Counted from the first letter of the stretch, positions 1,436 to 33,311 are shown. The stretch is DNA of 34,367 nt from Victivallaceae bacterium (GCA_045635285.1 JAZRBX010000120.1:1-34367); one strand, 5' to 3'. The notes: generated by a model from the sequence alone, not told the origin. Made by a program: numbers and translations.

Positions 1436-1464
1436 AAAATTTTCCCTTTCTAAAAAACAATATC

Positions 1465-4473: not shown

Positions 4474-4483
4474 GTTTTATCGT

Positions 4484-5029
4484 TCAGCGTTTGAAAAGTT
4501 CGTTGACATCGACATTCTGCCGTTCTTCGTCCGGGATTTCAAAAAGGTCGCGGGTGCTGAAGCGTTTGATACCGCTCAAAAGACAGCCGGGGAAAGTCTG
4601 AACTGAATTATTGAAATCAGTAACAGCACTGTTGTATGCACGGCGTGCGGCGGCGAGTTGAGCTTCGATTTCATTGAGAGAATTTTGCAGATTTTTGATA
4701 CTGTCGGAGGCTTTGAGGTCGGGGTATGCTTCGACCTGCAGCATATAGTTCCGCAAAGAGCTTGTAATTTTGTTGTCGAGAACGGATTTTTCTGCGACGG
4801 AAGAGGCGTTGGAACGCATTTCGGCAAGTTTGCTCAAAGTTTCGTTTTCATGTTCCATATATTTGGCGGTAGCTGCGACGAGGTTTGGGATCAGGTCGAA
4901 TCTTTTTTTGAGCTGTACGTCGATGACTGCCAATGCGTAATCTACCGCATTTTTCTTCATGGTCATGCTGTTGAAAAGATATATGAAAATGATTACTGCA
5001 AAAATAATGACGATTCCGATTATGTTCAT
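4484..5029 (-). CDS. lemA: LemA family protein
   Basis: Single N-terminal TM helix (NIIGIVIIFAVIIFIYLF) and a LemA-type core (QLKKRFDLIPNLVAATAKYMEHENETLSKLAEMRS ... AARRAYNSAVTDFN). The start is set at the ATG at 5029 because GGAGG lies 5 nt upstream. The ORF track extends to 5086. Confidence 0.8.
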   Translation of the reverse strand: MNIIGIVIIFAVIIFIYLFNSMTMKKNAVDYALAVIDVQLKKRFDLIPNLVAATAKYMEHENETLSKLAEMRSNASSVAEKSVLDNKITSSLRNYMLQVEAYPDLKASDSIKNLQNSLNEIEAQLAAARRAYNSAVTDFNNSVQTFPGCLLSGIKRFSTRDLFEIPDEERQNVDVNELFKR

Positions 5030-5136
5030 AAATACCTCCATGTTTTGTTGTTTCGTAAAAATACACTTGAAACAGAACAAAATCAAGTCGGATTTGCGAA
5101 AAAAGAACTTTTTTTACTTCTAACTGCTTTAAAGAA

Positions 5137-9108: not shown

Positions 9109-9136
9109 TTGATAACTTTGTAAGAAATTATATAAT
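9109..9136 (+). promoter_or_regulatory. Sigma70-like promoter candidate (alternative 1) for DUF1559 gene 1
   Basis: TTGATA (9109-9114), 16-nt spacer, TATAAT (9131-9136). Confidence 0.4.
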
Positions 9137-9160: not shown

Positions 9161-9189
9161 TTGCTTTTTTTAAAAAGATGTGCTATCTA
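9161..9189 (+). promoter_or_regulatory. Sigma70-like promoter candidate (alternative 2, extended -10) for DUF1559 gene 1
   Basis: TTGCTT (9161-9166), a 17-nt spacer ending in TGc, then TATCTA (9184-9189). This is the same TGn layout as the other promoters in the window. It would place palindrome A1 about 10-40 nt into the transcript. Confidence 0.4.
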
Positions 9190-9206
9190 TATAGCAAGAC
9201 ATCGCA

Positions 9207-9236
9207 AACTTCTGATAATATTGATTATCGGAAGTT
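9207..9236. repeat. Palindromic element copy A1 (13-4-13, core ATTG)
   Basis: Sequence aacttctgataat-attg-attatcggaagtt. It has 13-bp arms with one T/C (G-U compatible) mismatch. It differs at one position from copy C1 at 27921-27950. Confidence 0.9.
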
Positions 9237-9368
9237 GAAAAAATAAGGAGATTAAGGAATTTAAGGAATTCAGAGAGGCTTGTTTTGAGCTGAAAACCTG
9301 AATTATCTGAACTCCCTGAAATCCATGAAAATGAATAAGAACTCACACCTTAACCAAAGGAGAAAATT
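9237..9368 (+). promoter_or_regulatory. Conserved leader upstream of DUF1559 gene 1 (homologous to 28011-28110)
   Basis: Three phased TAAGGA repeats start at 9244, 9253 and 9262. They are followed by gttttgagctgaaaac and then CT-rich tracts (ctgaactccctgaaatcc). The region aligns by eye with the leader of DUF1559 gene 3. Confidence 0.6.
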
Positions 9369-10172
9369 ATGAAAAACACCCTAAAACAACATCCGGTAAT
9401 CAATATTATCGGAAGCAAGTTCACCCTTATTGAACTGCTTGTTGTGATTGCAATTATCGCAATCCTCGCCGGCATGCTGCTCCCCGCTCTCGGTAAAGCC
9501 CGTGAACGCGCCAGAAGCGCCAGCTGTCTTTCCAATCTGAAACAGCATGGCCTTGTTGATCAGATGTATGCGCAGGATTATGACCAGTGGGTCGTTCAGC
9601 GTCTCGGTGGCATGTGGGACGGCACCAGTGATTGGGCAGGTGCATACAGCCGTTTGGGGTATTATGACGCAGGTACATCGCTTAATGCGTTCAGGTGTCC
9701 TGCTTTGGCAAATGATGTTGCTAATAATGATACCCGGCCTACCGCATATCAATATACCTATGGTGTTGAAACAAGTGCCAATAATATGAAGTTTGTTCCC
9801 AAAGCATATTTTCAAATTAATAATAACGGAACTGAAGGTAACCATAACCGTTTAATTACTTTGAAGCGTGTAGGCAGACCCGCAAACGCTTTCCATCATA
9901 TTGATTCTCTTTCCTCCTCATTGACCTATCAGACTTCCGGTATTGAAATCAATAATGGCGGCTCCAGCCGTCCTCATGCCCGTCACGGCGGCAGAATCAA
10001 CGCTGACTATCTTGACGGTCATGCTGAGAGCAAAACTCCTCAACAGTGGGCTGATGCTACTATCAACAGTTGCTTGTATATGAATCAGACTACCGGTACG
10101 GATTGGACCGTTGCATGTTTTGATGAAAACAAAACAAAGAAGACTTACGTTGGCAAATGGGAAGGCAATTGA
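9369..10172 (+). CDS. Prepilin-like N-terminal helix protein, DUF1559 / H-X9-DG family (copy 1)
   Basis: 267-aa ORF with an AAAGGAG RBS. It has the [37 protein letters not shown]-terminus and the C-terminal motif [12 protein letters not shown] (H, nine residues, DG). A terminator follows. Confidence 0.9.
9388..9417. repeat. Palindromic element copy A2 (core CAAT), embedded in codons 7-17 of DUF1559 gene 1
   Basis: Sequence aacatccggtaat-caat-attatcggaagca. It matches the reverse complement of C1 at 26 of 30 positions. It encodes (Q)HPVINIIGS. Confidence 0.85.
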
Positions 10173-10199
10173 TAATTACTGTTCTAATTTGAAAATACA

Positions 10200-10227
10200 G
10201 GAGGCTGTTTTTCAGCCTCCTTTTTTT
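10200..10227 (+). terminator. Rho-independent terminator
   Basis: Stem ggaggctg (10200-10207) / cagcctcc (10213-10220), loop ttttt, then TTTTTTT. Confidence 0.85.
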
Positions 10228-10386
10228 ATGTTCTGTTTTTGAATGCGGGGATTGCGTTTCGATTGTGCTTTTTTAAAGAGGTTTCGGTGTTGAATATTGC
10301 TCTATTTTTCTGAATCAGTGATATATAAAAAGATGAAAAAATCTGTTGAAAAATGGAAAAATCTTCTCTTTTTAAACAAAAAAGAC

Positions 10387-10415
10387 TTGTTTTTTGAGAG
10401 TTTATACGCTATAAT
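10387..10415 (+). promoter_or_regulatory. Sigma70-like promoter for the DUF1559 gene 2 operon
   Basis: TTGTTT (10387-10392), 17-nt spacer, TATAAT (10410-10415). Confidence 0.5.
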
Positions 10416-10491
10416 TTAATCGAAACTCGACAGATTATTGCAGGAAAATGTAAATCTGTCAAAATATAAACTCTCAACTAAAGGAGAAAAA

Positions 10492-11256
10492 ATGAAGAAA
10501 AAATCACAATTCACTCTTATTGAACTCTTGGTCGTGATCGCCATCATCGCAATTCTCGCAGGTATGCTGCTCCCCGCCCTCGGCAAAGCCCGTGAACGCG
10601 CCAGAAGCGCCAGTTGTGTTTCCAATTTGAAACAGCACGCTCTTGTCGATATGATGTATGCCCAGGACAATGACGATTGGGTTCACAACTGGGGCGGCGG
10701 TATCGGTTGGGTAAATCCCAACGGTATGGCTTACTGGGCAGGTGTTTATGTCCGCAACGGCTACTACAATGAAAACAAGAGCGGCGACAATATTTTCAAA
10801 TGTCCTGCTTTTGCCAATACCGCAGTTGAAGATGCTCCCGAATGGCCGACCATGACTTACGGTGTCGTTACCAATGCAAATGACGGCAACTGGGAACCCC
10901 GTGCATTGCTGTTCTTCAATGATGATACCTGGCGTCTTATTTCTCTCAAACGCATTCAGAAACCCTCAAATACTTTCCATCACATCGACTCCATTGACGG
11001 AACTTGTGAAAATCAGACCGGTATGATGGGACTCGGTGAAAGTGCAGGTTCTTATACTCATGCCCGTCACAGCGGCAGAATCAATGCCGACTATCTTGAC
11101 GGTCATGCCGAAAGCAAGTCTCCGCAGCAGTGGGCTGATGCTTGTGCCAACAGCTTCTGCTATCAGAATACTTCCACCGGCGCAGACTTCACCGTCTGGT
11201 ATCGTGATGAAGCCAAAGAAAAGAAATCTGCTACCGGTAAATGGGAAGGCATGTAA
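10492..11256 (+). CDS. Prepilin-like N-terminal helix protein, DUF1559 / H-X9-DG family (copy 2)
   Basis: The start is set at the ATG at 10492 ([15 protein letters not shown]...), which follows an AAAGGAG RBS. The ORF track extends to 10438. The C-terminal motif is [12 protein letters not shown]. The C-terminal third is very similar to copy 1. Confidence 0.9.
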
Positions 11257-11278
11257 TATATTTTGCAAGGAGAAAAAA

Positions 11279-12928
11279 ATGAAGAAAATTTCAACAGTAT
11301 TACTTTTGATTTTCAGTTTTGTTTGCGCTTTCGCAAACATGCTGCCCACCGATTGGAATCAATGGACCAAAGACGGCGCAGGTGATTTCAATATCAACGG
11401 AAATACCGCTTCCGTCAAATATCACGGCGGTCAGAAAGTTGCGGCTTACAAATTCAATGCCAATGTTACAGGTGATAACTATTACATTTTTTCAGGCGAA
11501 TACAAACGCTTGTCCGAAAAAAGCGTCCCCAAAGTCCTCTACGTTTCCCGTACTCAGAAAAACGGCTGGATAGATCAGTATTGCGCTCCGCAGAGCAGTT
11601 CCGCCAAGGTCGGCGAATGGACAAAGTTTGAAGTTCGTGCCTATCTGCCGGATAATGCCGTTTTCGCTGACTTTACCGTCGGTTCAAAAGGTGATGCCGT
11701 CGAATTCAGAAATATGAAATTCGTCAAAGCCAACTTCAATGACCGCTCCGCCGATGCTCCCGAACTTGAATACTGGATCAATATGGACTGGAACGACAAT
11801 GTCCGTTATGCCAACCACATCGGTCATAAGTCTTACGGTGAAGAAGAAATCGTAAACTTTTTCAAATTGTGCAAACAAGCAGGAGTTACCGGCGTTTTCT
11901 GGCGCGTATCCGTAACCGGACAGATGGCTTATTGGAGCAAAGGCGCAGCAACCGTTTTCCCCGGTCATGTCAAATATGAACTGCTTGATAAAGATTTGCA
12001 GAGCACCGTCGATGTCCTCCGTCAGATCGACCCCCTTGCTGTCGCTGTCCGTGAAGCAAAGAAAAACGGTATCAAAATTTATGTCTGGATGACCCTCTCC
12101 GATGAAGGTTACAAAAAGGAAAACGACAAGGGCGAAATAATTATCCCCGATTACAGCTTCCCGAAATTCCTGATAGACAATCCCGACTGCCACCTGCTCG
12201 ACCGTCAGGGCAAACCGCTTTACGGCACTATCGCTTACAGCGAACCCAAATCCCGTGAATACCGTGTCAATATCGTCAAGGAATTGCTCGAATACAACGC
12301 AGACGGTCTTTATCTCTGCACCAGAACTCACAGCACCATCAACGGTATCGACAAATCAGGCAATGATTACGGCTTCAACAAAACTGTCGTCGAAGAATAC
12401 AAAAAACGCTACGGCGTCGATATTCTGACACAGGATTTTGATGTTAAAAAATTCCAGGACATCAAAGCCGAAGGTTTTGACAAACTCATTGAAGAAATCG
12501 GCACTCTTGTTCATGCCAAAGGGCAGAAAGTAATTCTCGGCGTTTCTTTCAACGGACTTTCTTCCGGTATACTTGGTTCAAACTGGGGCAAAATGCCTGT
12601 TCATTGGCAGAAATTCCTGCAGAATGAATGGATCGACGGCATCGTCAGCGGTCAGTACAATGTCGAACCGTTTTTCGCCACACGCGAAACTATGGCTTTC
12701 CGTGAAGTTGCCAAACCGCATCAGAAACTTTATTACTGGGCGCAGATGGTCAAATACGGAGTCGGTACTTACTCTCCCGCCAAACTGCTGAAACAGGCCG
12801 AATTCTTCGCCTTTCTGCAGGGCAACGGCGCCATGTATCACGAAGCGATGAACCTTGAAGGAAAAAAAGGTCAGAACGAGAAATATCTCTTTCCGATCGG
12901 CAAATTCTACAATCAGTTCAATAAATAA
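11279..12928 (+). CDS. Secreted two-module protein: N-terminal CBM-like beta-sandwich plus C-terminal glycoside-hydrolase-like TIM barrel (GHL10/DUF187-like layout), paralog P1
   Basis: The start is set at the ATG at 11279 (MKKISTVLLLIFSFVCAFA signal peptide, AAGGAG RBS). The ORF track's upstream extension overlaps the preceding gene. Motifs shared with P2-P4: YWINMDW, GVTGV.WR.S, DPLAVAVREAKKNGI.(I/L)Y.W.TLSDEG, EYR.N..KELLEY.ADGLY.CTR.HS, EYKKRYGVDILTQDFD. The GH-like assignment is inference from motif layout only. Confidence 0.8.
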   Translation: MKKISTVLLLIFSFVCAFANMLPTDWNQWTKDGAGDFNINGNTASVKYHGGQKVAAYKFNANVTGDNYYIFSGEYKRLSEKSVPKVLYVSRTQKNGWIDQYCAPQSSSAKVGEWTKFEVRAYLPDNAVFADFTVGSKGDAVEFRNMKFVKANFNDRSADAPELEYWINMDWNDNVRYANHIGHKSYGEEEIVNFFKLCKQAGVTGVFWRVSVTGQMAYWSKGAATVFPGHVKYELLDKDLQSTVDVLRQIDPLAVAVREAKKNGIKIYVWMTLSDEGYKKENDKGEIIIPDYSFPKFLIDNPDCHLLDRQGKPLYGTIAYSEPKSREYRVNIVKELLEYNADGLYLCTRTHSTINGIDKSGNDYGFNKTVVEEYKKRYGVDILTQDFDVKKFQDIKAEGFDKLIEEIGTLVHAKGQKVILGVSFNGLSSGILGSNWGKMPVHWQKFLQNEWIDGIVSGQYNVEPFFATRETMAFREVAKPHQKLYYWAQMVKYGVGTYSPAKLLKQAEFFAFLQGNGAMYHEAMNLEGKKGQNEKYLFPIGKFYNQFNK

Positions 12929-12949
12929 AATATACTGAATCTGTAAAGT

Positions 12950-12988
12950 AACTGCTGCAATCTTTTTACAGTTTGCAGCAGTTTTTTT
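12950..12988 (+). terminator. Rho-independent terminator
   Basis: Stem aactgctgcaa (12950-12960) / ttgcagcagtt (12973-12983), followed by a T-run to 12988. Confidence 0.8.
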
Positions 12989-13047
12989 ATACAGTGCAGA
13001 GATTTTCGTGAAAAAGAGGATAAATAGCAAAAAAAATTGCTTGCAAC

Positions 13048-13076
13048 TTGACAAAGCAGTTAAGCTGTGTTATAAT
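13048..13076 (+). promoter_or_regulatory. Consensus sigma70 promoter (extended -10) for the P2-P3 operon
   Basis: TTGACA (13048-13053), a 17-nt spacer ending in TGt, then TATAAT (13071-13076). Both hexamers are perfect. Confidence 0.7.
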
Positions 13077-13125
13077 ACCTTATCCTTGTATTTTTAACCA
13101 TGAAATATTAAAGAAAGTAAGAAAA

Positions 13126-14745
13126 ATGAAAAAATTACTGTTGCTGATGTCTGTTGCTTTTGCAGCTGTGCTTTCTGCTCTTGAACCTGTGCCTGCTTTT
13201 ACGGCATGGAAAAAAGACGGCGCAGGTGAATTCAAGGTTACAGAAAAAAGTGCCGTTGTTACATTTGTGAAAGGCAATCGCCCCGCTGCTCTCAAATATA
13301 AACTCGCAGTCGATCCCGACGGCTATTATGTTTTTACAGGTAAATTCAAACGCAACAGCGTTGACAGTGTGCCGCAGATCGATTTTGTCAGCCGCAATGC
13401 AAAAAATCAGTGGCTCGGTCAGTATTTCGCCCCCAAAGTCAAGGAAGCTCCTGTCGGTGAATGGCAGAATTTTGAAATTCGTGCTTATTTGAACAGCAGT
13501 ACCGCTTTCGCTGATATTACAGTAGGTTCTTTCGGCGGTTCTGTTGAAATCAAAGATCTCGCCTTTACCAAAAAAACTATCCACGACCGCCCCGCAAACG
13601 CTCCCGCTCCCGAATATTGGGTGAATATGGACTGGTGGGACAATGTTTATTATTGCAAAAATATGGGACTTAAAGATTACCGTGAGGCGGAAATCATCAA
13701 CTACTTCAAAGATTGCAAAGCCAAAGGCGTTACCGGCGTGCAGTGGCGTATCTCCGCTACCGGAACTGTGCTTTATCATACCAAAGGCGCAGCAACTCTC
13801 TATCCAGGAAAAGATATTGATTTGAATTTGCTGAATGAAAATCAGCGCCGTGTCGCTGAATCAATAAAGGCTTTTGACCCGCTCGCAGTCGCAGTTCGTG
13901 AAGCAAAGAAAAACGGTATCGAACTCTATATCTGGCTGACTCTCTCTGACGAAGGTTCAAAACATGATAAAATCAAACATTTGTCTTTCCCGGATTTCCT
14001 TATCAAAAATCCCGACTGCCATCTGCTCGACCGTCAGGGCAAACCGCTCTACGGCACTATTTGTTACAGCGATCCCCGCGCCCGTGAATACCGCTTGAAT
14101 ATGATCAAAGAATTGCTCGAATACGGTGCAGACGGGCTTTATATCTGTACTCGCAGTCACAGTTTCTTCTTCGGCAATGACAAAGGCGATGATTACGGCT
14201 TCAACAAATGTATCGTTGATGAATACAAAAAACGCTACGGCGTCGATATCTTGACCCAGGATTTTGATATCAAAAAATGGCGCGACCTCAAAGGTGAAGG
14301 TTTTGATATTCTCATTGAAGAAATCGGCAAACTTGCCCATGCAAAAAATCAGAAGGTCCGCCTCGGTCTTGCTTATATGACTCTTTCAAACAAATATCTC
14401 AGTTCAAACTGGGGTAAAATGACTGTCGATGTTGAAAAATATCTCCGCAACGGCTGGATCGATTCTGTCGTTACAGGTCAGTATCGTGTCAGTGCCGACT
14501 TCGGCAGCAAAGAGGTCAACCGCTTCAGAGAATATGCCCGTCCCGATCAGAAAATTTATTATTGGGCGCAGCTCTATTTCTACGGTCAGCGTATGGCGAC
14601 TGCTCTTGAAATCCTCAATCAGGCGGCATCTTTCAACTTCCTCGGTGCAAACGGCGCGATCATGCACGAATCTCTTAATCTTGAAGAACGCCCCGAAGAA
14701 TTCTTTGACTTTTTCGGTATCTGGTTTAATTCTTTTGCAAAATGA
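13126..14745 (+). CDS. Secreted CBM-like plus GH-like TIM-barrel protein, paralog P2
   Basis: The start is set at the ATG at 13126 (MKKLLLLMSVAFAAVLSA signal peptide). The ORF track's start at 13048 coincides with the promoter -35 box. It shares the family motifs listed for P1. Confidence 0.8.
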   Translation: MKKLLLLMSVAFAAVLSALEPVPAFTAWKKDGAGEFKVTEKSAVVTFVKGNRPAALKYKLAVDPDGYYVFTGKFKRNSVDSVPQIDFVSRNAKNQWLGQYFAPKVKEAPVGEWQNFEIRAYLNSSTAFADITVGSFGGSVEIKDLAFTKKTIHDRPANAPAPEYWVNMDWWDNVYYCKNMGLKDYREAEIINYFKDCKAKGVTGVQWRISATGTVLYHTKGAATLYPGKDIDLNLLNENQRRVAESIKAFDPLAVAVREAKKNGIELYIWLTLSDEGSKHDKIKHLSFPDFLIKNPDCHLLDRQGKPLYGTICYSDPRAREYRLNMIKELLEYGADGLYICTRSHSFFFGNDKGDDYGFNKCIVDEYKKRYGVDILTQDFDIKKWRDLKGEGFDILIEEIGKLAHAKNQKVRLGLAYMTLSNKYLSSNWGKMTVDVEKYLRNGWIDSVVTGQYRVSADFGSKEVNRFREYARPDQKIYYWAQLYFYGQRMATALEILNQAASFNFLGANGAIMHESLNLEERPEEFFDFFGIWFNSFAK

Positions 14746-14755
14746 TATTTGAAAA

Positions 14756-16375
14756 ATGAAAAAAATAGTATTAATCTTTCTGCTTTTGTCCGCCGCTGTA
14801 TGCATGTTCGCAGAGAATATGCTTCCCGCTTTCAATTTATGGAAAAAAATCGGTAACGGAGATATCAGTTTTTCTGAAAATGCTTTTGCCGTAACTCATA
14901 AAGGCGGAAAAAATGCCGCCGGTTTGACTTTCAGAGCCAAAGTAGAACCAAGTTCATGGTATTCCGTCAAAGGTAAAATCAAAAAATCCGCCGGTGCAAA
15001 TCCCGTCGTTTACTGTATCGTCCGTACCGCTAAAAACGGCTGGCTTTATCAATACAACGGCGCCGGCGTCAGACAGGCAAAAGCAGGTGAATGGTGCGAT
15101 TTTGAAATCCGTGTATGTCTGCCCGAAAGTGCAGCTGTTGCTGATTTGACTTGCGGCACCTCCAAAGGTTCTGTCGAATTCAAGGATGTCGTTTTTGAAA
15201 AATCTTCATGGCAGGACCGTTCCGATAAAGCAGGCAAATTGGAATACTGGATCAATATGGATTATTGCGATGAGATCGTTTATGCTCACAATATCGGTGT
15301 CGTCGGTGATGATCTTTATGATGAAAATGATATTGTCAAATTCTTTGAAGACTGCAAAAAGAACGGCGTTACCGGCGTGCAGTGGCGTGTTTCCCTCTTC
15401 GGCCACATGCTCTATCACAGCAAAGGTGCGGCGACAGTTTATCCCGGTTCAATGGATGTCAGCAAGCTCAATGAAAGCGGTATCAAGGTCGCAAAAGTTA
15501 TTCAGAAAATCGATCCTCTGGCTATCGCCGTCCGTGAAGCCAGAAAACACGGCATTGAAATTTATATCTGGATGACTCTTTCAGATGAGGGTTATAAACG
15601 GCTTGTTCCTGATTACTGCACCCCTGAATTCCTTATCAAAAATCCGCAGTACCACATGCTTGACCGTAACGGCAAACCGTGGAAAGGAACTATCTGTTAC
15701 AGCGAACCCGAAGCCCGCGAATACCGTTTGAACATTGTCAAAGAATTGCTTGAATACGGCGCAGACGGTCTTTATCTCTGCACCCGCTCTCACTGCAGCG
15801 TTTTTGATCATGATCCCAAAGCACTTTACGGTTTCAATAAAACTGTTGTTGAAGAATACAAAAAACGCTACGGCGTCGATATTCTGACCCAGGATTTTGA
15901 TGTTAAAAAGTTTCAGGCTCTCAAAGCGGAGGGCATTGACATGCTTATCGAAGAAATTGCCAAACTCGCTCATGCCAAAAATCAGAAAGTACGCCTCGGC
16001 GTTTCAATCGTTTCTCTGGCCAACAACAGCTGGAAAAATAACTGGGGAGAAGTCCCCTGTCATTGGCAGATGTATCTGGAAAAGGGCTGGATCGATTCCA
16101 TCGTCAGCGGTCAGTACAATGTCAGCGATTATTTTGCCTCCCGTGAATACAACCGTTTCGCTGAATTTGCAAAAGAGGGAAATAAATTTTATTCATGGGC
16201 ACAGATGGTCAAATACGGCGCAGGTGTTTATACCTATGAACAGTTGAGAGATCAGGCAAAAATTTTCAATTTCCTCGGTGCCAACGGCGGGATCTATCAT
16301 GAAGCGATAAATATGGAGGAACGACCTGATAAAATTTTTGCTCCTCTCGGTAAATTTTACAGCAATCCTCAATAA
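14756..16375 (+). CDS. Secreted CBM-like plus GH-like TIM-barrel protein, paralog P3
   Basis: 539-aa ORF lying 10 nt after P2. It has a signal peptide (MKKIVLIFLLLSAAVCMFA) and shares the family motifs. Confidence 0.8.
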   Translation: MKKIVLIFLLLSAAVCMFAENMLPAFNLWKKIGNGDISFSENAFAVTHKGGKNAAGLTFRAKVEPSSWYSVKGKIKKSAGANPVVYCIVRTAKNGWLYQYNGAGVRQAKAGEWCDFEIRVCLPESAAVADLTCGTSKGSVEFKDVVFEKSSWQDRSDKAGKLEYWINMDYCDEIVYAHNIGVVGDDLYDENDIVKFFEDCKKNGVTGVQWRVSLFGHMLYHSKGAATVYPGSMDVSKLNESGIKVAKVIQKIDPLAIAVREARKHGIEIYIWMTLSDEGYKRLVPDYCTPEFLIKNPQYHMLDRNGKPWKGTICYSEPEAREYRLNIVKELLEYGADGLYLCTRSHCSVFDHDPKALYGFNKTVVEEYKKRYGVDILTQDFDVKKFQALKAEGIDMLIEEIAKLAHAKNQKVRLGVSIVSLANNSWKNNWGEVPCHWQMYLEKGWIDSIVSGQYNVSDYFASREYNRFAEFAKEGNKFYSWAQMVKYGAGVYTYEQLRDQAKIFNFLGANGGIYHEAINMEERPDKIFAPLGKFYSNPQ

Positions 16376-16390
16376 AAATCCATTTGCAAG

Positions 16391-16419
16391 TCCCTGCTTT
16401 TACGGCAGGGATTTTTTTT
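16391..16419 (+). terminator. Rho-independent terminator
   Basis: Stem tccctgc (16391-16397) / gcaggga (16405-16411), followed by TTTTTTTT. Confidence 0.7.
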
Positions 16420-16481
16420 ATATCAGGTTTTAAAAAATTGTATAAAAACATATAAAATTGTAACTAAAATAAAAATCTTTG

Positions 16482-16510
16482 TTGCAAATTATTTAAATCG
16501 TGCATATAGT
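16482..16510 (+). promoter_or_regulatory. Sigma70-like promoter for the P4-GH20 operon
   Basis: TTGCAA (16482-16487), 17-nt spacer, TATAGT (16505-16510), with TG two nucleotides upstream of the -10 box. Confidence 0.45.
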
Positions 16511-16571
16511 AACTTTCAGTGTCAGAATTTATAAAATCGCAAACTCTTAAAAAATTATAAAAGGAGGAAAA

Positions 16572-27920: not shown

Positions 27921-27950
27921 AACTTCCGATAATATTGATTATCGGAAGTT
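27921..27950. repeat. Palindromic element copy C1 (perfect 13-4-13, core ATTG)
   Basis: Sequence aacttccgataat-attg-attatcggaagtt. It starts 13 nt after the TAA at 27906-27908 and is followed by a T-rich tract. Confidence 0.9.
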
Positions 27951-28110
27951 GTTTGAGGTTGTTTTTAAACTTTTTTATTTTTGTTTAATGTTGTGTTTAT
28001 TTTATTATCAGAAAATTAAGGAGGTTAAAGGAGTTTAAAGAATTTAGTGTTTCAAGCTCAAAAATAAGACTCCCAAAATTCCTGAAACTCTCAAAACTCC
28101 TTATTCCTGC
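27951..28110 (+). promoter_or_regulatory. Leader bracketed by C1/C2: T-rich tract plus a block homologous to 9237-9350
   Basis: TAAGGAGG, TAAAGGAG and TAAAGAAT repeats start at 28017, 28026 and 28036. They are followed by gtttcaagctcaaaaa and then CT-rich tracts (gactcccaaaattcctgaaactc...ctcctta). TAAGGAG (28017-28023) is perfectly complementary to CTCCTTA (28097-28103). Confidence 0.6.
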
Positions 28111-28140
28111 AACTTCCGATAATCAATATTACAGGAAGTA
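28111..28140. repeat. Palindromic element copy C2 (core CAAT, degenerate right arm)
   Basis: Sequence aacttccgataat-caat-attacaggaagta. It matches the reverse complement of C1 at 27 of 30 positions and ends 23 nt upstream of the ATG at 28164. Confidence 0.85.
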
Positions 28141-28163: not shown

Positions 28164-28913
28164 ATGAAAAAGCAACAAAATTTCACTCTGATTGAACTTC
28201 TGGTCGTGATCGCAATTATCGCAATTCTTGCAGGTATGCTGCTCCCCGCACTCGGAAAAGCTCGTGAACGCGCCCGCGCTGCAAACTGTATCAGCAATCT
28301 CAAAAATTGTATTCAGGCTTCAATTTTTTATGCTGATGATCATGAAGGATGGAATTACCTCTCCATTGATACTTCCGCAAATAAACTCGGTTCACGCCTG
28401 ATCGGCTGGTCAGAATGGCTTATTTGCTATGGCTACATGAAAGAAGACACCAAAGCTTTCGGCTGCCCTTCAATGGAAGGTCCCAAAGATGAAGCTTCTG
28501 CAAGTTATTACGGCAATACCATGACTTTCGGAGTTCCTGCTTGCCCCGCTCATGTGCTGCCGGCTGAAATTTGTTCCACAACCAACGACGGTGCAAACCA
28601 TTATCTCAACGCCAAGAGAATTGACAATCCCTCCTACTTCACCTATTTCGCAGATACTGTAAATGCCGCAGGGCAGCAGGTCAACAGCTGGTATATCACC
28701 AACAGCTGGAACGCTTATATGCACGCACGCCATAACAACGCTGTCAATATGGCATTTATGGACGGTCATGTCGGAACTCACAAGCCGATGGAGATTTGGG
28801 ATATAAATCTCGGAAGCAAGCACTCCTTTTCAACTTGCTATTCAACCGCAAGAAGCGGCTGCAACTGGTACAATAAAGATATTGTTATCAAGAAATTCAA
28901 TGTAAATCAATAA
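28164..28913 (+). CDS. Prepilin-like N-terminal helix protein, DUF1559 / H-X9-DG family (copy 3)
   Basis: 249-aa ORF with the N-terminus [42 protein letters not shown] and the C-terminal motif [12 protein letters not shown] (H, nine residues, DG). Confidence 0.9.
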
Positions 28914-28921: not shown

Positions 28922-30406
28922 ATGAAAAAATTATTATTGCTCATCGGAGTTTCTACGATGTTATTAAACCTTAATGCAGAACCTGCCAAAAAGTATAAAT
29001 ATACTCTTTTTGTTCCCGATCCCGGGGAGGTCGCTACTGCAGAAGCTCAACGCAATTCTCCTAAACCTCTGGCAATCAATTTTAATATTGATCTTAAAAA
29101 AGATATGCCCAAACTCCGCCCCCTGCACGGTGTGGCAAATTATGTGCCGATCTCTTACAATGCCATTGCTTACAAGCATGGCATCAGAGAGGGACTCAAA
29201 GAATTAAAACTGCCGTACACCTATCTGCATGATGATCCCATTACCAATTTGGGCAGAAACGTCGTTGATGTCAGTCGTATTTTTCCGCTTTTCCATGCGG
29301 ATGAAAACGATCCTGCCAACTATCTTTTCGCCGAAACTGACGCTTATATCAAAATGATGATCGAAGACGGAGTCAAAGTTATTTTCCGCCTCGGCGAAAC
29401 TATTGAAAACGACGCTTTGCACTTCCGCACTGTTCCGCCCAAAGATTATGCCAAATGGACCCGCATCTGTTTGAATATCGTCCGCCACTACAACGAGGGC
29501 TGGGCAAACGGTCATCATTGGAACATTCAGGACTGGGCTGTTTGGGAAGAGCCTAATAATCCTAATTTGTGGCATGGCTCTTTTGAGCAGTATATGCAGC
29601 TTTACAAAGCATTTGCTCCTGAATTCAAAAAGGCGTTCCCGAATCTTCGCGTCGGCGGTCCGCAGACAACGACTCTCGGTTATCCCTTCCTTGAAAAATT
29701 CCTGCAATTTGTGCAGAAAGAAAAACTGCCGCTGGATTTTGTCGCCTATACCGCATACTATCTGACCCCTGCTGATATGCTGGCAGAAAGTGTCAAACGC
29801 AGAGAAATGCTCGACAAGTACGGCTTTGAAAATGTGCCGCTCTGGACCAATGAATGGCATTGCAGCCCCTATTGGTATGAGTACAACGATCCCGTCAGCT
29901 ACGGCAGAGAGGAAAATCGTTTCGGCGGTACAGAGGGCGGCGTTTTCGCGGCCACGGTTCTTTGCGGTTTGCAGGACAGTCCGCTTGAAAGAGCATGTTT
30001 TTATTCTGCATGTCTGATCAACGGCTGGGGAATGTTTGACTGCGACGGCAGACCTGCACCGGTTTATTATGTTTTCAAGAAATTCTCTCCGCTGTATCAG
30101 AATTCCGTCAAACGCATTGCAGTTGATGTCAAAGGTACATCCGCCAATACACAGGCGATCGCTTCTTTGAACAAAGACGGAAATATTGAATTTTTCTGCG
30201 GTATTTTCAGCACAAATGAGGGAGATTTGACGGTCAATGTTCCCGAAGGTTACAAACTTGACCTTATTCAGAGTCTTGACGATCTGACAACTCCTTATTA
30301 TGTCGAAGTTCCGTCTCACCTTTACAGCACCGACGGCAAAACTTTGGAACTGCACAAACTTAAATGTGCTTCTTCCTACTATATAGTTTTCAAACCTGTA
30401 AAATAA
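28922..30406 (+). CDS. Secreted clan GH-A glycoside hydrolase, GH39-like
   Basis: 494-aa ORF with a signal peptide (MKKLLLLIGVSTMLLNLNA). The acid/base-type motif is WAVWEEPNNPNLW followed by ...LRVGGP (compare FEIWNEPN...VGGP of GH39). The candidate nucleophile context is PLWTNEWH. Confidence 0.65.
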   Translation: MKKLLLLIGVSTMLLNLNAEPAKKYKYTLFVPDPGEVATAEAQRNSPKPLAINFNIDLKKDMPKLRPLHGVANYVPISYNAIAYKHGIREGLKELKLPYTYLHDDPITNLGRNVVDVSRIFPLFHADENDPANYLFAETDAYIKMMIEDGVKVIFRLGETIENDALHFRTVPPKDYAKWTRICLNIVRHYNEGWANGHHWNIQDWAVWEEPNNPNLWHGSFEQYMQLYKAFAPEFKKAFPNLRVGGPQTTTLGYPFLEKFLQFVQKEKLPLDFVAYTAYYLTPADMLAESVKRREMLDKYGFENVPLWTNEWHCSPYWYEYNDPVSYGREENRFGGTEGGVFAATVLCGLQDSPLERACFYSACLINGWGMFDCDGRPAPVYYVFKKFSPLYQNSVKRIAVDVKGTSANTQAIASLNKDGNIEFFCGIFSTNEGDLTVNVPEGYKLDLIQSLDDLTTPYYVEVPSHLYSTDGKTLELHKLKCASSYYIVFKPVK

Positions 30407-30416: not shown

Positions 30417-32243
30417 ATGAAAAAAATCTCTTTACTGCTGCTTTTCAGCTTTGTTCTGACAGCTGCGTACAGCAAGGATGTAAAAAGGTTCACCACTATT
30501 GACATTCTTGACAATTATTGGAAAACTTATTGTGCAACTTACGGACCAGACGGCCCCGCTGAGAAACCTTTAAGTGCAGGTACTTACACCGTTGAAAATA
30601 TGCGTCAGATGATTGATGATATGGCAGAACTCGGTTTTGAGCGTGTTTACTGGATTACCAATTACGGCGATATGTTGTACGGTCAGGTCGCAGCACTGGA
30701 TAACGGAAAAAAAGTTCACGGTACTGAACTTCTGAAAATCCTTGTCGATCAGGCTCACAAACGTAATATGGAACTGTACGTCATTTATAAACCCTTTGAA
30801 ACCGGTGGCGGCACTCATCCTGATGAACTTCCCCGCCCGAAAGAACTTTTTTATGTCAAAAATACTGACGGATGGCAGGGCGCACTGGAATTTACAGTCA
30901 AAAATCCGCATACCCGTCTGCGCCGCAGAATGCCTCCGCGTCCTGCCAATGACAAAGTTCATACCATTACTCTCGTAAGCCGTGCAGGTATTCCGATCAC
31001 TTTGCAGAGAGAGGATTTTCAACTTTTTGCAAGTTCTGAAAACGGCAGATACCGTGAGATCACCGATTTTACTGTCGAAGCCGGAGTTACTGAAAAATAT
31101 CCCAAACTGCAGAAAATCACTTTCACTCCCGCAAACTTGAACGACAATGATAAATTCTTCATCATCAAATGTTCGAAGAAAAACAATCCCGTTCAGATCG
31201 TTCATGATACTTTCTCTATTGTCGAACTTCGCAATTCAGACGGTGTTATTCTGCCTGAAAGTATCGCCACCGGCAGGATCACTCTTAAAGGTTTGAATGA
31301 TTCATGGCCTCATCAGCTTTTCAAAGTATCAAATAAAGATACCCGCACTCCCGAAGAATGGATACTTAAAGGAGATTTCGGTTCAACTTTGGAAAAAGGT
31401 GCTTTCACCTATGACTGCACCTCATCAACATCCAGCCATTATGTCGATAGTGACGGTTACATCGCATTCAGCGCATGCCCGATCGAATACCTCGGAAGTC
31501 TGCATCCGGCATATCCCGAAGTCATGGAACTTTGGAAAGAGATGGTACGCAGAATTTCCGCCAGCGGTTGTGACGGTATTGACATCCGTTTCGGCGACCA
31601 TGCCAGCTGGACGATTTACGGAGAAGAATACGGTTTCAATGCTCCTGTCGTTGCAGAATACAAAAAACGCTACGGCGTTGATCCCGAAAAAGAACCCTAT
31701 GACCGTGCTTTGTGGCGTCAGCTCAATGGCGAATACCTTACTGAATTCATGAAATGGTGTTCCAAAACTCTGCATCCCAAAGGTCAGAAACTTCATGCTC
31801 ATATTTCAATTACTATGGCTGATCGTGATTTCTGGCGCCGCAATGATGCTCCCGCCAACTTCAAATATGAGTGGAAAAAATGGATGCAGGAAAAAATTAT
31901 TGACGGCGTCAATATGAAATATCTGCCTTTCCCGTGGGACGGCAGAGACTCCAGCGGCTTGCAGTATGCTTATGCCATTATCAAGTTTGCTCAAAAATAC
32001 CAAATTGAAACAAACATCGAAGCCCGTACGATTTGGTGGGTGGAACCGACAGACTCAACTTCGCCTCCGTTTACTGATGCCCAGTACAATCGTTTTCTCA
32101 AAAATTTTCGTATTTTGCATGCGAGCGGTGTCGATGCGTTGAATTACTATGAAGTAAGCGACTTTTTCAAGATCGACGGATTCGGCAATCCGAAATATGC
32201 AGATAAATTCCTGAAACTTATGAACGATGTTGAGGCTGAATAA
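30417..32243 (+). CDS. Secreted GH-like TIM-barrel protein, divergent fifth member (P5) of the P1-P4 family with a large internal insertion
   Basis: 608-aa ORF with a signal peptide (MKKISLLLLFSFVLTAAYS). It shares these blocks with P1-P4: YWITNYGD, AHKRNMELYVIYKPFETGG, AYPEVMELWKEMVRRISASGCDGIDIRFGDHAS, YGFNAPVVAEYKKRYGVDP, WKKWMQEKIIDGV. It has no N-terminal CBM-like module. Confidence 0.7.
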   Translation: MKKISLLLLFSFVLTAAYSKDVKRFTTIDILDNYWKTYCATYGPDGPAEKPLSAGTYTVENMRQMIDDMAELGFERVYWITNYGDMLYGQVAALDNGKKVHGTELLKILVDQAHKRNMELYVIYKPFETGGGTHPDELPRPKELFYVKNTDGWQGALEFTVKNPHTRLRRRMPPRPANDKVHTITLVSRAGIPITLQREDFQLFASSENGRYREITDFTVEAGVTEKYPKLQKITFTPANLNDNDKFFIIKCSKKNNPVQIVHDTFSIVELRNSDGVILPESIATGRITLKGLNDSWPHQLFKVSNKDTRTPEEWILKGDFGSTLEKGAFTYDCTSSTSSHYVDSDGYIAFSACPIEYLGSLHPAYPEVMELWKEMVRRISASGCDGIDIRFGDHASWTIYGEEYGFNAPVVAEYKKRYGVDPEKEPYDRALWRQLNGEYLTEFMKWCSKTLHPKGQKLHAHISITMADRDFWRRNDAPANFKYEWKKWMQEKIIDGVNMKYLPFPWDGRDSSGLQYAYAIIKFAQKYQIETNIEARTIWWVEPTDSTSPPFTDAQYNRFLKNFRILHASGVDALNYYEVSDFFKIDGFGNPKYADKFLKLMNDVEAE

Positions 32244-32245: not shown

Positions 32246-33262
32246 ATGAAAAAACTTTTTCTTTTCGTCGTTGCCGCTTTTTGTGCAATTTCTGCCGCGG
32301 CATCAGAATTCCGTCCGCTTTACCGTATGAATACCAACGGTAATGAAATCTTAAAAAATTTCAGTATTTACAGCCATCCCGGATATGGTGCCAAGTTGAG
32401 CAGGACTGTCGTTGATGGTGTTCCTGCTGTCAAATTGAGCGTTACCGATGCTAAAAATCCTCTGGAATGGTACACCAAAATCCAGCTCCGTCTGACTGTA
32501 AATTCAAAAATTGAAGCATGCAGTGAGTACCGCATCCGTTTCCGCTGCCGTACCGACAGAGTTGCAAATTTCCGTTTCTGCTGTCAGGAAGCAGTTACTC
32601 CGTGGGGATTGCTGACTGAACACCGTCACGGTCATGTGCTGGCAACTCCTGATTGGCAGGATGTGGAATACACTTTCACCGCCACCAAAGATTCAAATGT
32701 TTCCGCATGGCTGCCCAATTTTGAATGCGGTATGCTTGGCAAAGATAATTCACTTTATATAACTGATCTGGTCGTGGAAGCTCTCGACGCAGAAAAGACC
32801 ATAGTTATTGCCAAGCCCGATCCGCAGGGTATGCAGGTTTATTGTCAACCCGGATTCAAGGTGCAGAAAAAGAACAGCACTTTCAACGGTTCCAAAGTCT
32901 GCGGTATTTATCTGGAAAATGCTCCTGCAAATATTACCAATGCTTCACAGGTGCAGTATCGTTTCCCGGTGACGGTAACTATTGTCAAGGGCGCATCCTA
33001 TCGTCTGTCATTCTATCACAAAGCTGACAAAGCTGCCGCATGTTTGGTACAGGTCCAGCGTGGAGTTCATCCGTGGAGTATGCCTTCTCCGCTGGCTTTG
33101 AGAAACTTCAAAACCAATACCGAATGGGATTATTTTGAAATGAATTTTACCTCCGGTGAAAATTACAATAAACTCATGTTTCTGCCCAATATCAGTATCG
33201 GTCTTGTTGGCAAAGGCAATACTTTTTATCTTCGTGATGTCAAATTTGAAAGAGTTGACTGA
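32246..33262 (+). CDS. Secreted protein made of two tandem CBM-like beta-sandwich modules
   Basis: 338-aa ORF lying 2 nt after P5, with a signal peptide (MKKLFLFVVAAFCAISAAAS). The two halves have the same pattern, for example SEYRIRFRCR...WQDVEYTFTA...GKDNSLYITDLVVE and ASYRLSFYHK...WDYFEMNFTS...GKGNTFYLRDVKFE. Confidence 0.7.
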   Translation: MKKLFLFVVAAFCAISAAASEFRPLYRMNTNGNEILKNFSIYSHPGYGAKLSRTVVDGVPAVKLSVTDAKNPLEWYTKIQLRLTVNSKIEACSEYRIRFRCRTDRVANFRFCCQEAVTPWGLLTEHRHGHVLATPDWQDVEYTFTATKDSNVSAWLPNFECGMLGKDNSLYITDLVVEALDAEKTIVIAKPDPQGMQVYCQPGFKVQKKNSTFNGSKVCGIYLENAPANITNASQVQYRFPVTVTIVKGASYRLSFYHKADKAAACLVQVQRGVHPWSMPSPLALRNFKTNTEWDYFEMNFTSGENYNKLMFLPNISIGLVGKGNTFYLRDVKFERVD

Positions 33263-33281
33263 TATACGGAAAATTTTTATG

Positions 33282-33311
33282 AACGGCAGGAAAAATCCTG
33301 CCGTTTTTTTT
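33282..33311 (+). terminator. Rho-independent terminator
   Basis: Stem aacggcagga (33282-33291) / tcctgccgtt (33296-33305), loop aaaa, with a T-run to 33311. Confidence 0.85.

What the first reader, a model, noticed from the sequence alone, without database searches (positions are those of the whole stretch)
10387..12988. DUF1559 pseudopilin-like genes are the promoter-proximal genes of secreted-CAZyme operons
Seen directly:
- Promoter 10387-10415, then DUF1559 copy 2, a 22-nt gap, the secreted P1 protein, and a terminator at 12950.
- DUF1559 copy 3 (28164) is followed at gaps of 8, 10 and 2 nt by a secreted GH39-like enzyme, P5 and a tandem-CBM protein, then a terminator at 33282.

Established: DUF1559/H-X9-DG proteins carry a type IV pilin/T2SS pseudopilin-like N-terminal helix. 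They are hugely expanded in PVC bacteria and have no demonstrated function.

Inference: here they may be substrate-specific surface or periplasmic modules for glycan capture or enzyme display. Each would be paired with its own hydrolases, analogous in logic to SusD-like proteins in Bacteroidota PULs. As far as I know, this would be an undescribed type of polysaccharide-utilisation module.
Basis: partly seen in the sequence, partly recalled or inferred. Interest (0 to 1): 0.65.

Follow-up and report, generated by a model that had tools for sequence, protein, structure and literature searches.

The report
Switchable pilin-like genes heading glycan operons
In a gut Lentisphaerae genome, pilin-like genes of unknown function sit at the front of gene sets for exported sugar-degrading enzymes, and two of the three carry what look like DNA flip-switches, so they are probably switchable cell-envelope helpers for sugar harvesting, though their role is untested.

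Summary
Copy 2 (10492-11256) is followed after 22 nt by the signal-peptide protein P1 and a hairpin terminator. Copy 3 (28164-28913) is followed at 8, 10 and 2 nt by GH39, a GHL10-like protein and a CBM protein, then a terminator. The contig is from a Victivallaceae MAG of herbivore guts.

In related gut Lentisphaeria the same arrangement recurs. DUF1559 genes lead or sit inside glycan operons next to AraC or GntR regulators. One DUF1559-plus-LamG module has duplicated as a unit. The copy 1/2 subtype again heads a P1-homologue/GH20 operon in another genome. Across the wider family the neighbours are heterogeneous, though enriched for signal-peptide-like proteins.

The SusD-like glycan-capture idea is untested. 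The head domain matches no solved fold, and Gly(-1) of the pilin signal is mostly absent.

Each cassette is bounded by 13-4-13 dyad sites. A related genome has three DUF1559 genes whose 5' ends are inverted (OFF) and one intact (ON). This looks like phase variation. Inversion within one population was not shown.

The parts
9109..9136 (+). Promoter-like site upstream of the copy 1 cassette (TTGATA-16-TATAAT)
   Evidence: Scan, 11 of 12 matches. A promoter sits just upstream of the left repeat in L001 and L094 as well.
9207..9237 (.). Left dyad site of cassette 1 (arms CTTCTGATAAT / ATTATCGGAAG, core ATTG)
   Evidence: 4 matches in the window, 0 expected by chance.
9238..9386 (+). Interior of cassette 1. 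It carries the RBS, ATG 9369 and the first 6 codons of copy 1.
   Evidence: 78-80% identical to the reverse complement of the interior of cassette 2.
9387..9415 (.). Right dyad site of cassette 1 (core CAAT). It lies inside the leader-peptide codons [10 protein letters not shown].
   Evidence: The same leader is conserved in many divergent paralogues.
9369..10172 (+). DUF1559 / H-X9-DG pilin-like protein, copy 1 (monocistronic)
   Evidence: Terminator at 10199-10221. Some strains seem to lack this gene.
10199..10221 (+). Intrinsic terminator after copy 1
   Evidence: Stem of 9 pairs followed by T7.
10387..10415 (+). Promoter-like site of the copy 2-P1 operon (TTGTTT-17-TATAAT)
   Evidence: Read directly from the sequence. 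Identical in strain L001.
10492..11256 (+). DUF1559 / H-X9-DG pilin-like protein, copy 2
   Evidence: N_methyl 30.4 bits. Model pLDDT 85. dN/dS 0.17 against L001.
11279..12928 (+). P1: protein with a signal-peptide-like N-terminus, an N-terminal beta-sandwich-like region and a GHL10-like (UPF0748/YddW family) TIM-barrel region
12950..12988 (+). Hairpin plus T-run terminator after P1
   Evidence: Read directly from the sequence.
27921..27951 (.). Left dyad site of cassette 2 (perfect 13-4-13, core ATTG). As RNA it forms a hairpin of -21.8 kcal/mol followed by a U-rich tract.
27952..28109 (.). Interior of cassette 2, inverted relative to cassette 1. It holds TTGTTT-16-TATTAT facing copy 3.
28110..28139 (.). 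Right dyad site of cassette 2 (core CAAT), 24 nt upstream of ATG 28164
28164..28913 (+). DUF1559 / H-X9-DG pilin-like protein, copy 3
   Evidence: N_methyl 32.4 bits. TIGR04294 19.4 bits against a cut-off of 19.
28922..30406 (+). GH39-like protein with a signal-peptide-like N-terminus
   Evidence: PF01229, 1.3e-17.
30417..32243 (+). P5: GHL10-like protein with a signal-peptide-like N-terminus
   Evidence: PF02638, 2.5e-10.
32246..33262 (+). CBM_4_9 protein with a signal-peptide-like N-terminus
   Evidence: PF02018, 1.3e-8.
33281..33306 (+). Intrinsic terminator of the copy 3 operon
   Evidence: Stem of 11 pairs followed by T8.

Best explanation
The three genes encode pilin-like envelope proteins. 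Each has a class-III-type N-terminal helix (FTLIELL...) and a variable H-X9-DG head. In gut Lentisphaeria these genes are built into regulator-controlled glycan-utilisation operons, usually as the first gene.

Shown:
- the operon anatomy;
- recurrence of the pairing, and its co-duplication, in relatives;
- purifying selection on copy 2;
- inverted-repeat cassettes at the 5' ends of copies 1 and 3 in opposite orientations;
- inverted 5' gene ends in a related genome.

Inferred:
- The protein is an operon-specific accessory of the cell envelope or surface. It would be membrane-anchored or assembled into a short fibre. It would serve the exported enzymes encoded behind it, by holding the substrate or by tethering or escorting the enzymes.
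- Its production is toggled by site-specific DNA inversion, i.e. phase variation.
- For copy 1, the invertible piece supplies the RBS, the ATG and the leader codons.
- For copy 3, it flips a promoter-like or terminator-like leader lying between the upstream gene and the operon.
For: **Anatomy**

**Recurrence in gut Lentisphaeria**
- DUF1559 is followed by BNR_2 in L006, by GH130 and DUF4838 in L087, and by a 1031-aa signal-peptide protein, SSF, FG-GAP and GH130 in L090.
- It is followed by GH106 in L092, and by LamG_3 (twice) and by GH35, a P1 homologue and GH20 in L094.
- It sits mid-operon in L091 and L004.
- The immediate downstream gene is glycan-related in 6 of 11 cases, against 13 of 84 other genes in the same loci (Fisher p = 0.007). 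The sample is small and biased.

**Co-inheritance**
- The two DUF1559 heads that precede LamG genes are 52% identical, and their LamG partners are 71% identical.
- The head of the L094 P1-homologue operon is closest to window copies 1 and 2 (40-43% over about 185 aa).

**Wider family**
- The downstream ORF looks signal-peptide-bearing in 20 of 30 cases, against 58 of 190 controls (p = 3e-4).

**Selection**
- dN/dS is 0.17 for copy 2 and 0.15 for P1.

**Switch**
- Four dyad sites are found where none is expected by chance.
- The two cassette interiors match only in reverse complement.
- The leader that holds the site is conserved across divergent paralogues.
- The site is about 8-10 times deeper than its flanks in four metagenomes.
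- In L094, three genes have the RBS, the ATG and [15 protein letters not shown] on the opposite strand behind a consensus promoter. A fourth gene has the same piece forward, at about 90% identity.

**Literature**
- An alginate-induced cluster holds a pulG-like pseudopilin with 67 paralogues, and a further pseudopilin is over-expressed on alginate (PMC13274419).
Against: - No expression, localisation or binding data exist, and no RNA runs hold this organism.
- The head has no recognisable lectin, CBM or SBP fold.
- Some immediate neighbours lack a signal peptide by a crude heuristic (GH130, GH106, GH35).
- Some DUF1559 genes are solitary (window copy 1, L003, the first gene of L004).
- Across the wider family, only a few of 30 downstream genes are CAZyme-like.
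- Gly(-1) is present in only 23 of 237 close homologues, so cleavage and fibre assembly are uncertain.
- Both orientations were never seen at one locus within one population. All four samples show OFF at one L094 locus, and the window's runs are low-coverage contigs.
- No recombinase gene was seen among the window's major ORFs.
Confidence: 0.4

Rival explanations
1. The DUF1559 proteins are cargo-specific type II secretion pseudopilins. Each operon brings its own PulG-like subunit, which primes a shared secretion machine to push that operon's enzymes across the outer membrane. They do not bind glycans themselves.
For: - Their N-termini match GspG, GspH and pilin models.
- NCBI names relatives 'type II secretion system protein'.
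- Downstream genes are enriched for signal-peptide-like proteins.
- The authors of PMC13274419 read their alginate-cluster pseudopilin this way.
Against: - Several immediate partners have no signal peptide.
- Gly(-1), which canonical prepilin peptidases need, is mostly absent.
- Phase variation is typical of surface-exposed structures and would be unexpected for a periplasmic pseudopilus (general knowledge).
- Matches to GspG and GspH cover only the N-terminal helix and fall far below the family cut-offs.
Confidence: 0.2
2. There is no specific functional link. DUF1559 genes and CAZyme genes are both very abundant in these genomes, and adjacency reflects chance plus shared ancestry of a few operons. 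The DUF1559 proteins would have a general envelope role such as adhesion or acting as a phage receptor or decoy.
For: - The family is huge: 120,618 representative clusters at E<=1e-3.
- Read depth over the helix codons is 100-200 times that of the flanks.
- Neighbours in the wider family are heterogeneous.
- Solitary copies exist.
- P1-family genes occur without DUF1559.
- The loci examined were chosen by homology, so they are not independent.
Against: - The position at the head of the operon, with short gaps, recurs.
- Modules have co-duplicated, and one subtype keeps its synteny with the P1/GH20 cluster across genomes.
- Glycan-related and signal-peptide-like neighbours are enriched relative to genes in the same loci.
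Confidence: 0.2
3. This rival concerns only the switch. The cassettes in the window are not active invertons. They would be fossil inversions, MITE-like insertions in two orientations, or paired operator sites for a dimeric regulator.
For: - No population-level orientation mix was observed.
- The cassette interiors are only 78-80% alike.
- Relic half-sites occur in L092, L093 and L087.
- No recombinase gene was seen among the window's major ORFs.
- Copy 3 keeps its own RBS and ATG outside the cassette.
Against: - The sites are conserved at 90% or more, while the interiors and the genes have diverged (27% identity between the heads of copies 1 and 3).
- Each site is a 13-4-13 dyad with an asymmetric core, and the cores are opposed at the two ends, which is the architecture of a recombinase site.
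- No target-site duplication was seen.
- L094 shows true inversion of gene 5' ends. There the promoter-plus-switch regions are far more alike across three paralogues than the gene heads, which are only 32-52% identical.
Confidence: 0.25

Closest known systems
Type IV pilins and T2SS major pseudopilins (PulG/GspG)
   Same: Both have a short basic leader, then F(+1), E(+5) and a hydrophobic helix of about 20 residues. The N_methyl family is hit. The model shows a long N-terminal helix packed on a beta head. The H-X9-DG motif near the C-terminus may correspond to the Gly/Asp-rich loop of GspG; this last point is from memory and was not tested.
   Different: Gly(-1) is mostly missing. The head finds no solved pilin or pseudopilin fold. 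There are dozens to hundreds of paralogues scattered through catabolic operons rather than one gene inside a secretion or pilus gene cluster.
SusD-like proteins of Bacteroidota PULs
   Same: In logic only: there is one accessory gene per glycan operon, it is co-encoded with hydrolases and a regulator, and some SusC/D-like loci are also under inverton control (general knowledge).
   Different: There is no homology. The protein has no TPR-like all-alpha fold, no lipoprotein signal and no SusC or TonB-dependent partner. The transporters here are SSF-type.
Sulfolobus bindosome (sugar-binding proteins with class III signal peptides, assembled by the Bas system)
   Same: Pilin-type N-termini are put on proteins that serve sugar acquisition at the cell surface (PMC4471445).
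   Different: Bindosome subunits are true ABC-type solute-binding proteins. The DUF1559 head shows no solute-binding-protein fold despite its Pfam name SBP_bac_10, and there is no adjacent ABC transporter.
Cellulose-binding type IV pilin of Ruminococcus albus (PilA1/CbpC)
   Same: It is a pilin that itself binds a polysaccharide, in a gut fibre degrader (PMC4471445).
   Different: It is a single major pilin of a Gram-positive type IV pilus. It is not an operon-embedded multigene family.
Invertons (fimS, Bacteroides invertible promoters), intragenic inversions and the R64 PilV shufflon
   Same: Short segments bounded by inverted repeats at the 5' end of surface-structure genes, found in opposite orientations at paralogous loci. 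In L094 the crossover lies inside coding sequence, as in intragenic inversions (title of PMC10028968; the paper was not read) and in shufflons.
   Different: The sites are new to me: 13-4-13 dyads within the leader codons, or the IELLVV codons of the pilin helix. The shufflon swaps 3' ends, whereas here 5' ends flip. Recombinase unknown.
pulG-like pseudopilin in the alginate-induced cluster of Verruconatronum alginivorum (PMC13274419)
   Same: A pilin-like gene with 67 paralogues sits inside a polysaccharide-utilisation cluster of a PVC bacterium. A further pseudopilin is over-expressed on alginate.
   Different: It is in a different phylum. I could not check whether it carries H-X9-DG. No switch was reported, and the authors invoke T2SS export.

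Membership tests
Type IV pilin / pseudopilin superfamily (class III signal peptide) | The N-terminal methylation/cleavage motif scores above the family threshold (PF07963 / TIGR02532) | tested here: met
   PF07963 scores 30.4 bits (copy 2), 32.4 bits (copy 3) and 21.2 bits (copy 1, exactly at the cut-off of 21.2). TIGR02532 scores 21.6-21.8 bits against a cut-off of 16.3.
Type IV pilin / pseudopilin superfamily (class III signal peptide) | Glu at +5 and a hydrophobic helix of about 20 residues after the cleavage site | tested here: met
   [24 protein letters not shown] is invariant across 82 homologues. The model has a helix at residues 9-59.
Type IV pilin / pseudopilin superfamily (class III signal peptide) | Gly at -1, which is the prepilin peptidase recognition residue | tested here: not met
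   The -1 residue is K in copy 1, Q in copy 2 and N in copy 3. Gly is found at -1 in only 23 of 237 close homologues.
Type IV pilin / pseudopilin superfamily (class III signal peptide) | Prepilin peptidase and an assembly ATPase and platform encoded in the genome | not testable with these tools
   Only a 34-kb contig is available, and none of these genes was seen among its major ORFs. A T2SSE gene lies 9 kb from a relative's DUF1559 gene in L087.
Type IV pilin / pseudopilin superfamily (class III signal peptide) | Alpha-beta roll head similar to solved pilins or pseudopilins | tested here: inconclusive
   Foldseek matches only the N-terminal helix (1ay2, 8tj2). The head-only model (pLDDT 82) has no match better than E = 0.37.
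DUF1559 (PF07596, SBP_bac_10) / H-X9-DG (TIGR04294) | PF07596 scores above its gathering threshold | tested here: inconclusive
   Copy 1 scores 23.2 bits against 23.3. Copies 2 and 3 give no hit at E<=0.01. Many homologues at 33-41% identity carry precomputed PF07596 hits.
DUF1559 (PF07596, SBP_bac_10) / H-X9-DG (TIGR04294) | C-terminal H-X9-DG motif | tested here: met
   The motif reads [12 protein letters not shown] in copy 1, [12 protein letters not shown] in copy 2 and [12 protein letters not shown] in copy 3. TIGR04294 scores 19.4 bits against a cut-off of 19 for copy 3. H193, D203 and G204 are nearly invariant.
SusD-like proteins | SusD fold, lipoprotein signal and an adjacent SusC-type TonB-dependent transporter | tested here: not met
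   No SusD or RagB Pfam hit. The fold is a helix plus beta head. No TonB-dependent transporter was found among the window's genes.
Periplasmic solute-binding proteins (the Pfam name SBP_bac_10 implies this) | Two-lobed alpha/beta solute-binding-protein fold | tested here: not met
   There is no solute-binding-protein match among the Foldseek hits for either model. The PDB sequence search returns pilins only.
Inverton (invertible DNA switch) | Inverted repeats bounding a short segment at the 5' end of a gene | tested here: met
   Sites 9207-9237 / 9387-9415 and 27921-27951 / 28110-28139 are 90-93% complementary, with 0 expected by chance.
Inverton (invertible DNA switch) | The segment is found in both orientations | tested here: inconclusive
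   Both orientations are seen between paralogous loci: cassette 1 against cassette 2, and three OFF loci against one ON locus in L094. They were never seen at one locus within one sample.
Inverton (invertible DNA switch) | A site-specific recombinase acts on the repeats | not testable with these tools
   No recombinase was seen among the window's major ORFs. The rest of the genome is not available.

The most novel reading that the evidence does not exclude
Gut Lentisphaeria run a pilin-based counterpart of the Bacteroidota Sus paradigm. Each PUL-like operon carries its own H-X9-DG pilin-like adaptor whose variable head captures that operon's glycan, or docks its enzymes, at the cell surface. 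The cell turns individual adaptors on and off by flipping their 5' ends, in some cases with the crossover inside the codons of the conserved pilin helix. This would give a phase-variable repertoire of glycan-harvesting fibres.
Probability: 0.2. Interest if true: 0.85.

Novelty: new variant of a known kind. Interest (0 to 1): 0.62.

Why it matters
DUF1559 / H-X9-DG proteins are among the largest paralogous families with no known function in PVC bacteria. The head-only profile finds 120,618 clusters. P. limnophila has 68 copies, two of them essential (PMC10632474).

A reproducible genomic context gives the family its first testable functional frame: the head of regulator-controlled glycan operons, co-duplicated with the partner genes. 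The apparent flip-switches are a second lead, because phase variation usually marks surface-exposed structures.

If confirmed, this would show how a non-Bacteroidota gut phylum organises polysaccharide harvesting. It would also add a new class of inverton targets and sites.

Tried and rejected
- **RNA evidence for co-transcription.** No RNA run holds the locus.
- **Genome-wide neighbourhood count.** I therefore used 80 metagenome loci and 12 context look-ups instead.
- **Read-level proof of inversion.**
  - Only low-coverage Logan contigs were available.
  - They show paralogous cassettes and one opposite-strand joint at 80% likeness. None of this can be assigned to the same locus.
  - In run X13, a contig 95% identical to copy 3 has a different, leader-end-like sequence before the right site. 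It matches the flipped interior at only 18 of 30 positions, so it is suggestive at most.
- **SBP, lectin or CBM fold for the head.** Rejected by two Foldseek searches.
- **Known RNA element in the leaders.** Rfam finds nothing. The internal hairpins are not clearly better than shuffled sequence.
- **Inverted repeats as a general feature upstream of DUF1559 genes.** Only 6 of 106 upstream regions have them, against 4 of 403 controls. One of the six is a short repeat inside the copy 2 leader of L001. The three hits outside this lineage look like GC-rich REP-type palindromes.
- **Strong diversifying selection on copy 2.** Rejected, since dN/dS is 0.17.
- **Obligatory pairing of P1-family genes with DUF1559.** Rejected.
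Full report
**1. Source and layout**

The window is a whole 34,367-bp contig. Its copy 2 protein is 95% identical to one from a Victivallaceae MAG. Its DNA words occur in bovine, goat and other gut metagenomes. The contig is dense in carbohydrate genes:
- two GFO/IDH/MocA oxidoreductases, an AraC regulator, GHL6 and a metallophosphatase with a signal-peptide-like N-terminus;
- pilin-like copy 1 (9369-10172);
- copy 2 (10492-11256) followed by P1 (11279-12928);
- three further P1 paralogues (53-54% identical) and GH20;
- an SSF transporter, GH94 and a PIG-L deacetylase;
- a GntR/FCD regulator and an ADP-ribosylglycohydrolase-like protein;
- copy 3 (28164-28913), followed by GH39, the GHL10-like P5 and a CBM_4_9 protein.

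**2.

- The gaps of 22, 8, 10 and 2 nt are correct, as are both terminators and the TTGTTT-17-TATAAT site at 10387-10415.
- That promoter has a weak -35 hexamer. The ~160 nt upstream of the gene are almost identical in the sister strain.
- The terminator after P1 was missed by the scan only because its loop is 12 nt long.
- The downstream proteins have Sec-type N-termini, judged by eye.
- P1 has no Pfam hit of its own. It belongs by paralogy to the GHL10 / UPF0748 (YddW) family, so 'CAZyme' is putative for P1.
- There is a perfect sigma-70 consensus at 13048-13076, so P2 starts a new transcription unit.

**3. What the pilin-like proteins are**

- All three hit the N-terminal methylation motif and carry H-X9-DG. 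PF07596 is marginal in the window's copies but common in their homologues.
- The AlphaFold model of copy 2 (pLDDT 85, pTM 0.84) is a 50-residue N-terminal helix on a beta-rich head.
- Against the PDB, only the helix matches pilins.
- A head-only model (pLDDT 82) finds nothing better than E = 0.37. The Pfam name 'SBP_bac_10' and the literature's 'solute-binding protein' label (PMC2754498, PMC4807772) are therefore not backed by the fold, and there is no lectin or CBM likeness either.
- The family is very large: 120,618 clusters at 50% identity match the head profile.
- The canonical Gly(-1) of class III signal peptides is present in only 23 of 237 close homologues and in none of the window's copies. 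Cleavage and fibre assembly cannot be assumed.
- Copy 2 is under purifying selection (dN/dS 0.17), much like its neighbour P1 (0.15).

**4. Is the pairing with glycan genes more than chance?**

*Wide sample.* I took 80 metagenome loci and located the family's genes with an HMM.
- Of 53 DUF1559 genes outside the window's own lineage with enough downstream DNA, 35 have a co-directional ORF close behind, and 30 of those ORFs are not pilins.
- The Pfam families of those 30 are heterogeneous: IclR, an FGGY kinase, TPR, OMP decarboxylase, ZnuA, AP_endonuc_2, GFO/IDH/MocA, BNR_2, LamG_3 and others.
- There is therefore no general CAZyme rule for the family.
- The ORFs do look signal-peptide-bearing more often than matched controls from the same loci: 20 of 30 against 58 of 190, Fisher p = 3e-4. 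The heuristic is crude, and the control set includes some spurious ORFs.

*Gut Lentisphaeria.* Annotated contexts show a clearer pattern.
- DUF1559 is followed by BNR_2 (L006), by GH130 and DUF4838 (L087) and by GH106 (L092).
- In L090 it is followed by a 1031-aa signal-peptide protein, SSF, FG-GAP and GH130.
- In L094 it is followed by LamG_3 (twice) and by GH35, a P1 homologue and GH20.
- It sits mid-operon within GH127/GH106 and GH39/GH130 operons (L091, L004).
- Three copies are solitary.
- AraC or GntR regulators flank most of these loci.
- The immediate downstream gene is glycan-related in 6 of 11 cases, against 13 of 84 other genes in the same loci (p = 0.007). The loci were chosen by homology and are few, so this is suggestive only.

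*Co-inheritance.*
- In L094, the two modules of DUF1559 followed by LamG are paralogous as units: the heads are 52% identical and the LamG partners 71%.
- The DUF1559 gene that heads the P1-homologue/GH20 operon there is closest to window copies 1 and 2.

*Limits.* P1-family genes also occur without DUF1559.

**5.

*In the window.*
- Four copies of a 26-bp dyad, CTTCCGATAAT-N4-ATTATCGGAAG, occur in the window where none is expected by chance.
- They form two pairs, at 9207-9237 / 9387-9415 and at 27921-27951 / 28110-28139. Each pair lies immediately 5' of copy 1 or copy 3.
- The left sites have core ATTG and the right sites have core CAAT.
- The ~150-nt interiors of the two cassettes match each other only in reverse complement, at 78-80%. 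The two cassettes therefore sit in opposite orientations relative to their genes.
- At copy 1, the interior supplies the RBS, ATG 9369 and six codons, and the right site is translated as part of the leader ([10 protein letters not shown]).
- That leader, MKNxLKQHxxxNxIGS, recurs on many otherwise divergent paralogues in gut metagenomes. Some of these have only relic half-sites.
- In four metagenomes the site is about 8-10 times deeper than its unique flanks.
- At copy 3, the gene keeps its own RBS and ATG. In the present orientation the left site forms a hairpin of -21.8 kcal/mol followed by a U-rich tract, and a TTGTTT-16-TATTAT motif faces the gene. Whether this state is ON or OFF cannot be decided from sequence alone.

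*In a related Lentisphaeria contig (L094).*
- Three of four DUF1559 genes lack an in-frame 5' end.
- Their RBS, ATG and [15 protein letters not shown] codons lie on the opposite strand just upstream, between imperfect inverted repeats and behind a consensus TTGACA-17-TATAAT promoter.
- The fourth gene has the same piece forward, at about 90% identity, and is intact.
- The promoter-plus-switch regions are far more alike among these paralogues than the heads are (32-52%). This argues for a maintained mechanism rather than decay.
- The OFF state at one locus is identical in four independent assemblies.

*Caveat.* I could not show both orientations at one locus within one population, and I saw no recombinase gene in the window.

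*Strain variation.* The sister strain lacks copy 1 and has a promoter plus half a cassette in its place. One metagenome contig joins 9161 to 10346.

**6. Mechanism**

My best reading, at confidence 0.4, is as follows. These are operon-specific, probably phase-variable accessory proteins of the envelope or surface that serve the exported enzymes encoded behind them.

I cannot separate the possible sub-mechanisms:
I put it at about 0.2 as a specific claim.
- Tethering of the enzymes is a second possibility.
- Escorting the enzymes across the outer membrane is the T2SS reading used in PMC13274419.

Phase variation, if real, favours surface exposure over a periplasmic pseudopilus.

Known analogues in logic are the Sulfolobus bindosome and the cellulose-binding pilin of Ruminococcus albus (PMC4471445), and SusD (general knowledge). 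The proteins are not members of any of these families; see the membership rows.

**7. Verdict**

- The feature is a new variant of known kinds, namely pilin-like accessory proteins, PUL-like operons and invertons.
- The switches are the most promising new lead.

Noticed in passing
window 9207-9415 and 27921-28139: There are two homologous ~210-bp cassettes bounded by 13-4-13 dyad sites, lying in opposite orientations 5' of DUF1559 copies 1 and 3. This looks like an inverton. The right site of the first cassette is translated as part of the leader peptide.
   Followed up: yes
L094 1016-1200, 4800-4990, 11480-11680 (OFF); 3885-4060 (ON): In a related Lentisphaeria contig, three DUF1559 genes have their RBS, ATG and first 15 codons inverted behind a consensus promoter. 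A fourth gene is intact. The crossover lies in the codons of the conserved pilin helix.
   Followed up: yes
window 9161-10346; L001 1-300: Copy 1 seems to be missing in some strains. One metagenome contig joins 9161 to 10346. The sister strain has a promoter, a left site and half a cassette directly upstream of the copy 2 promoter.
   Followed up: partly
window copies 1-3 and 237 homologues: The residue before F(+1) is rarely Gly (23 of 237 homologues; K, Q and N in the window's copies), although the rest of the pilin N-terminus is invariant. Processing may differ from that of canonical prepilins.
   Followed up: partly
window 11279-18188 and 30417-32243: There are four tandem paralogues (P1-P4, 53-54% identical) plus the more distant P5, all of a rare GHL10/UPF0748-like family. 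Only 36 homologues were found at E<=1e-10, mostly from Lentisphaeria. Each has an N-terminal beta-sandwich-like region.
   Followed up: partly
window 28174-28257: Read depth over the codons of the pilin helix is 100-200 times that of the flanks in four gut metagenomes, at 80% likeness or better. This gives a measure of how many such genes these communities carry.
   Followed up: no
L098 1776-16168: In a distant genome, a P1-family gene sits in a LamG / FG-GAP / BNR_2 cluster that is headed by a classical ABC solute-binding protein, and no pilin-like gene lies within 8 kb. This may be a case of a different protein filling the same position.
   Followed up: no
window 20333-25424: SSF transporter, GH94 phosphorylase and PIG-L deacetylase lie in a tight row, with overlaps or gaps of 8 nt or less. 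Together with the nearby GH20, this suggests a substrate containing chitobiose or GlcNAc.
   Followed up: no
window 290-2610 (- strand): Two tandem 381-aa ORFs are paralogues (direct DNA repeat, 73% identical over 300 nt). The one tested hits GFO/IDH/MocA oxidoreductase families.
   Followed up: no
L093 3290-3449: The end of this contig is the reverse complement of the preceding ~60 nt. This is an assembler hairpin artefact, not biology.
   Followed up: no
window 3544-5086 (- strand): A 200-aa ORF looks LemA-like from memory, and a 309-aa membrane protein lies next to it. Neither was tested.
   Followed up: no
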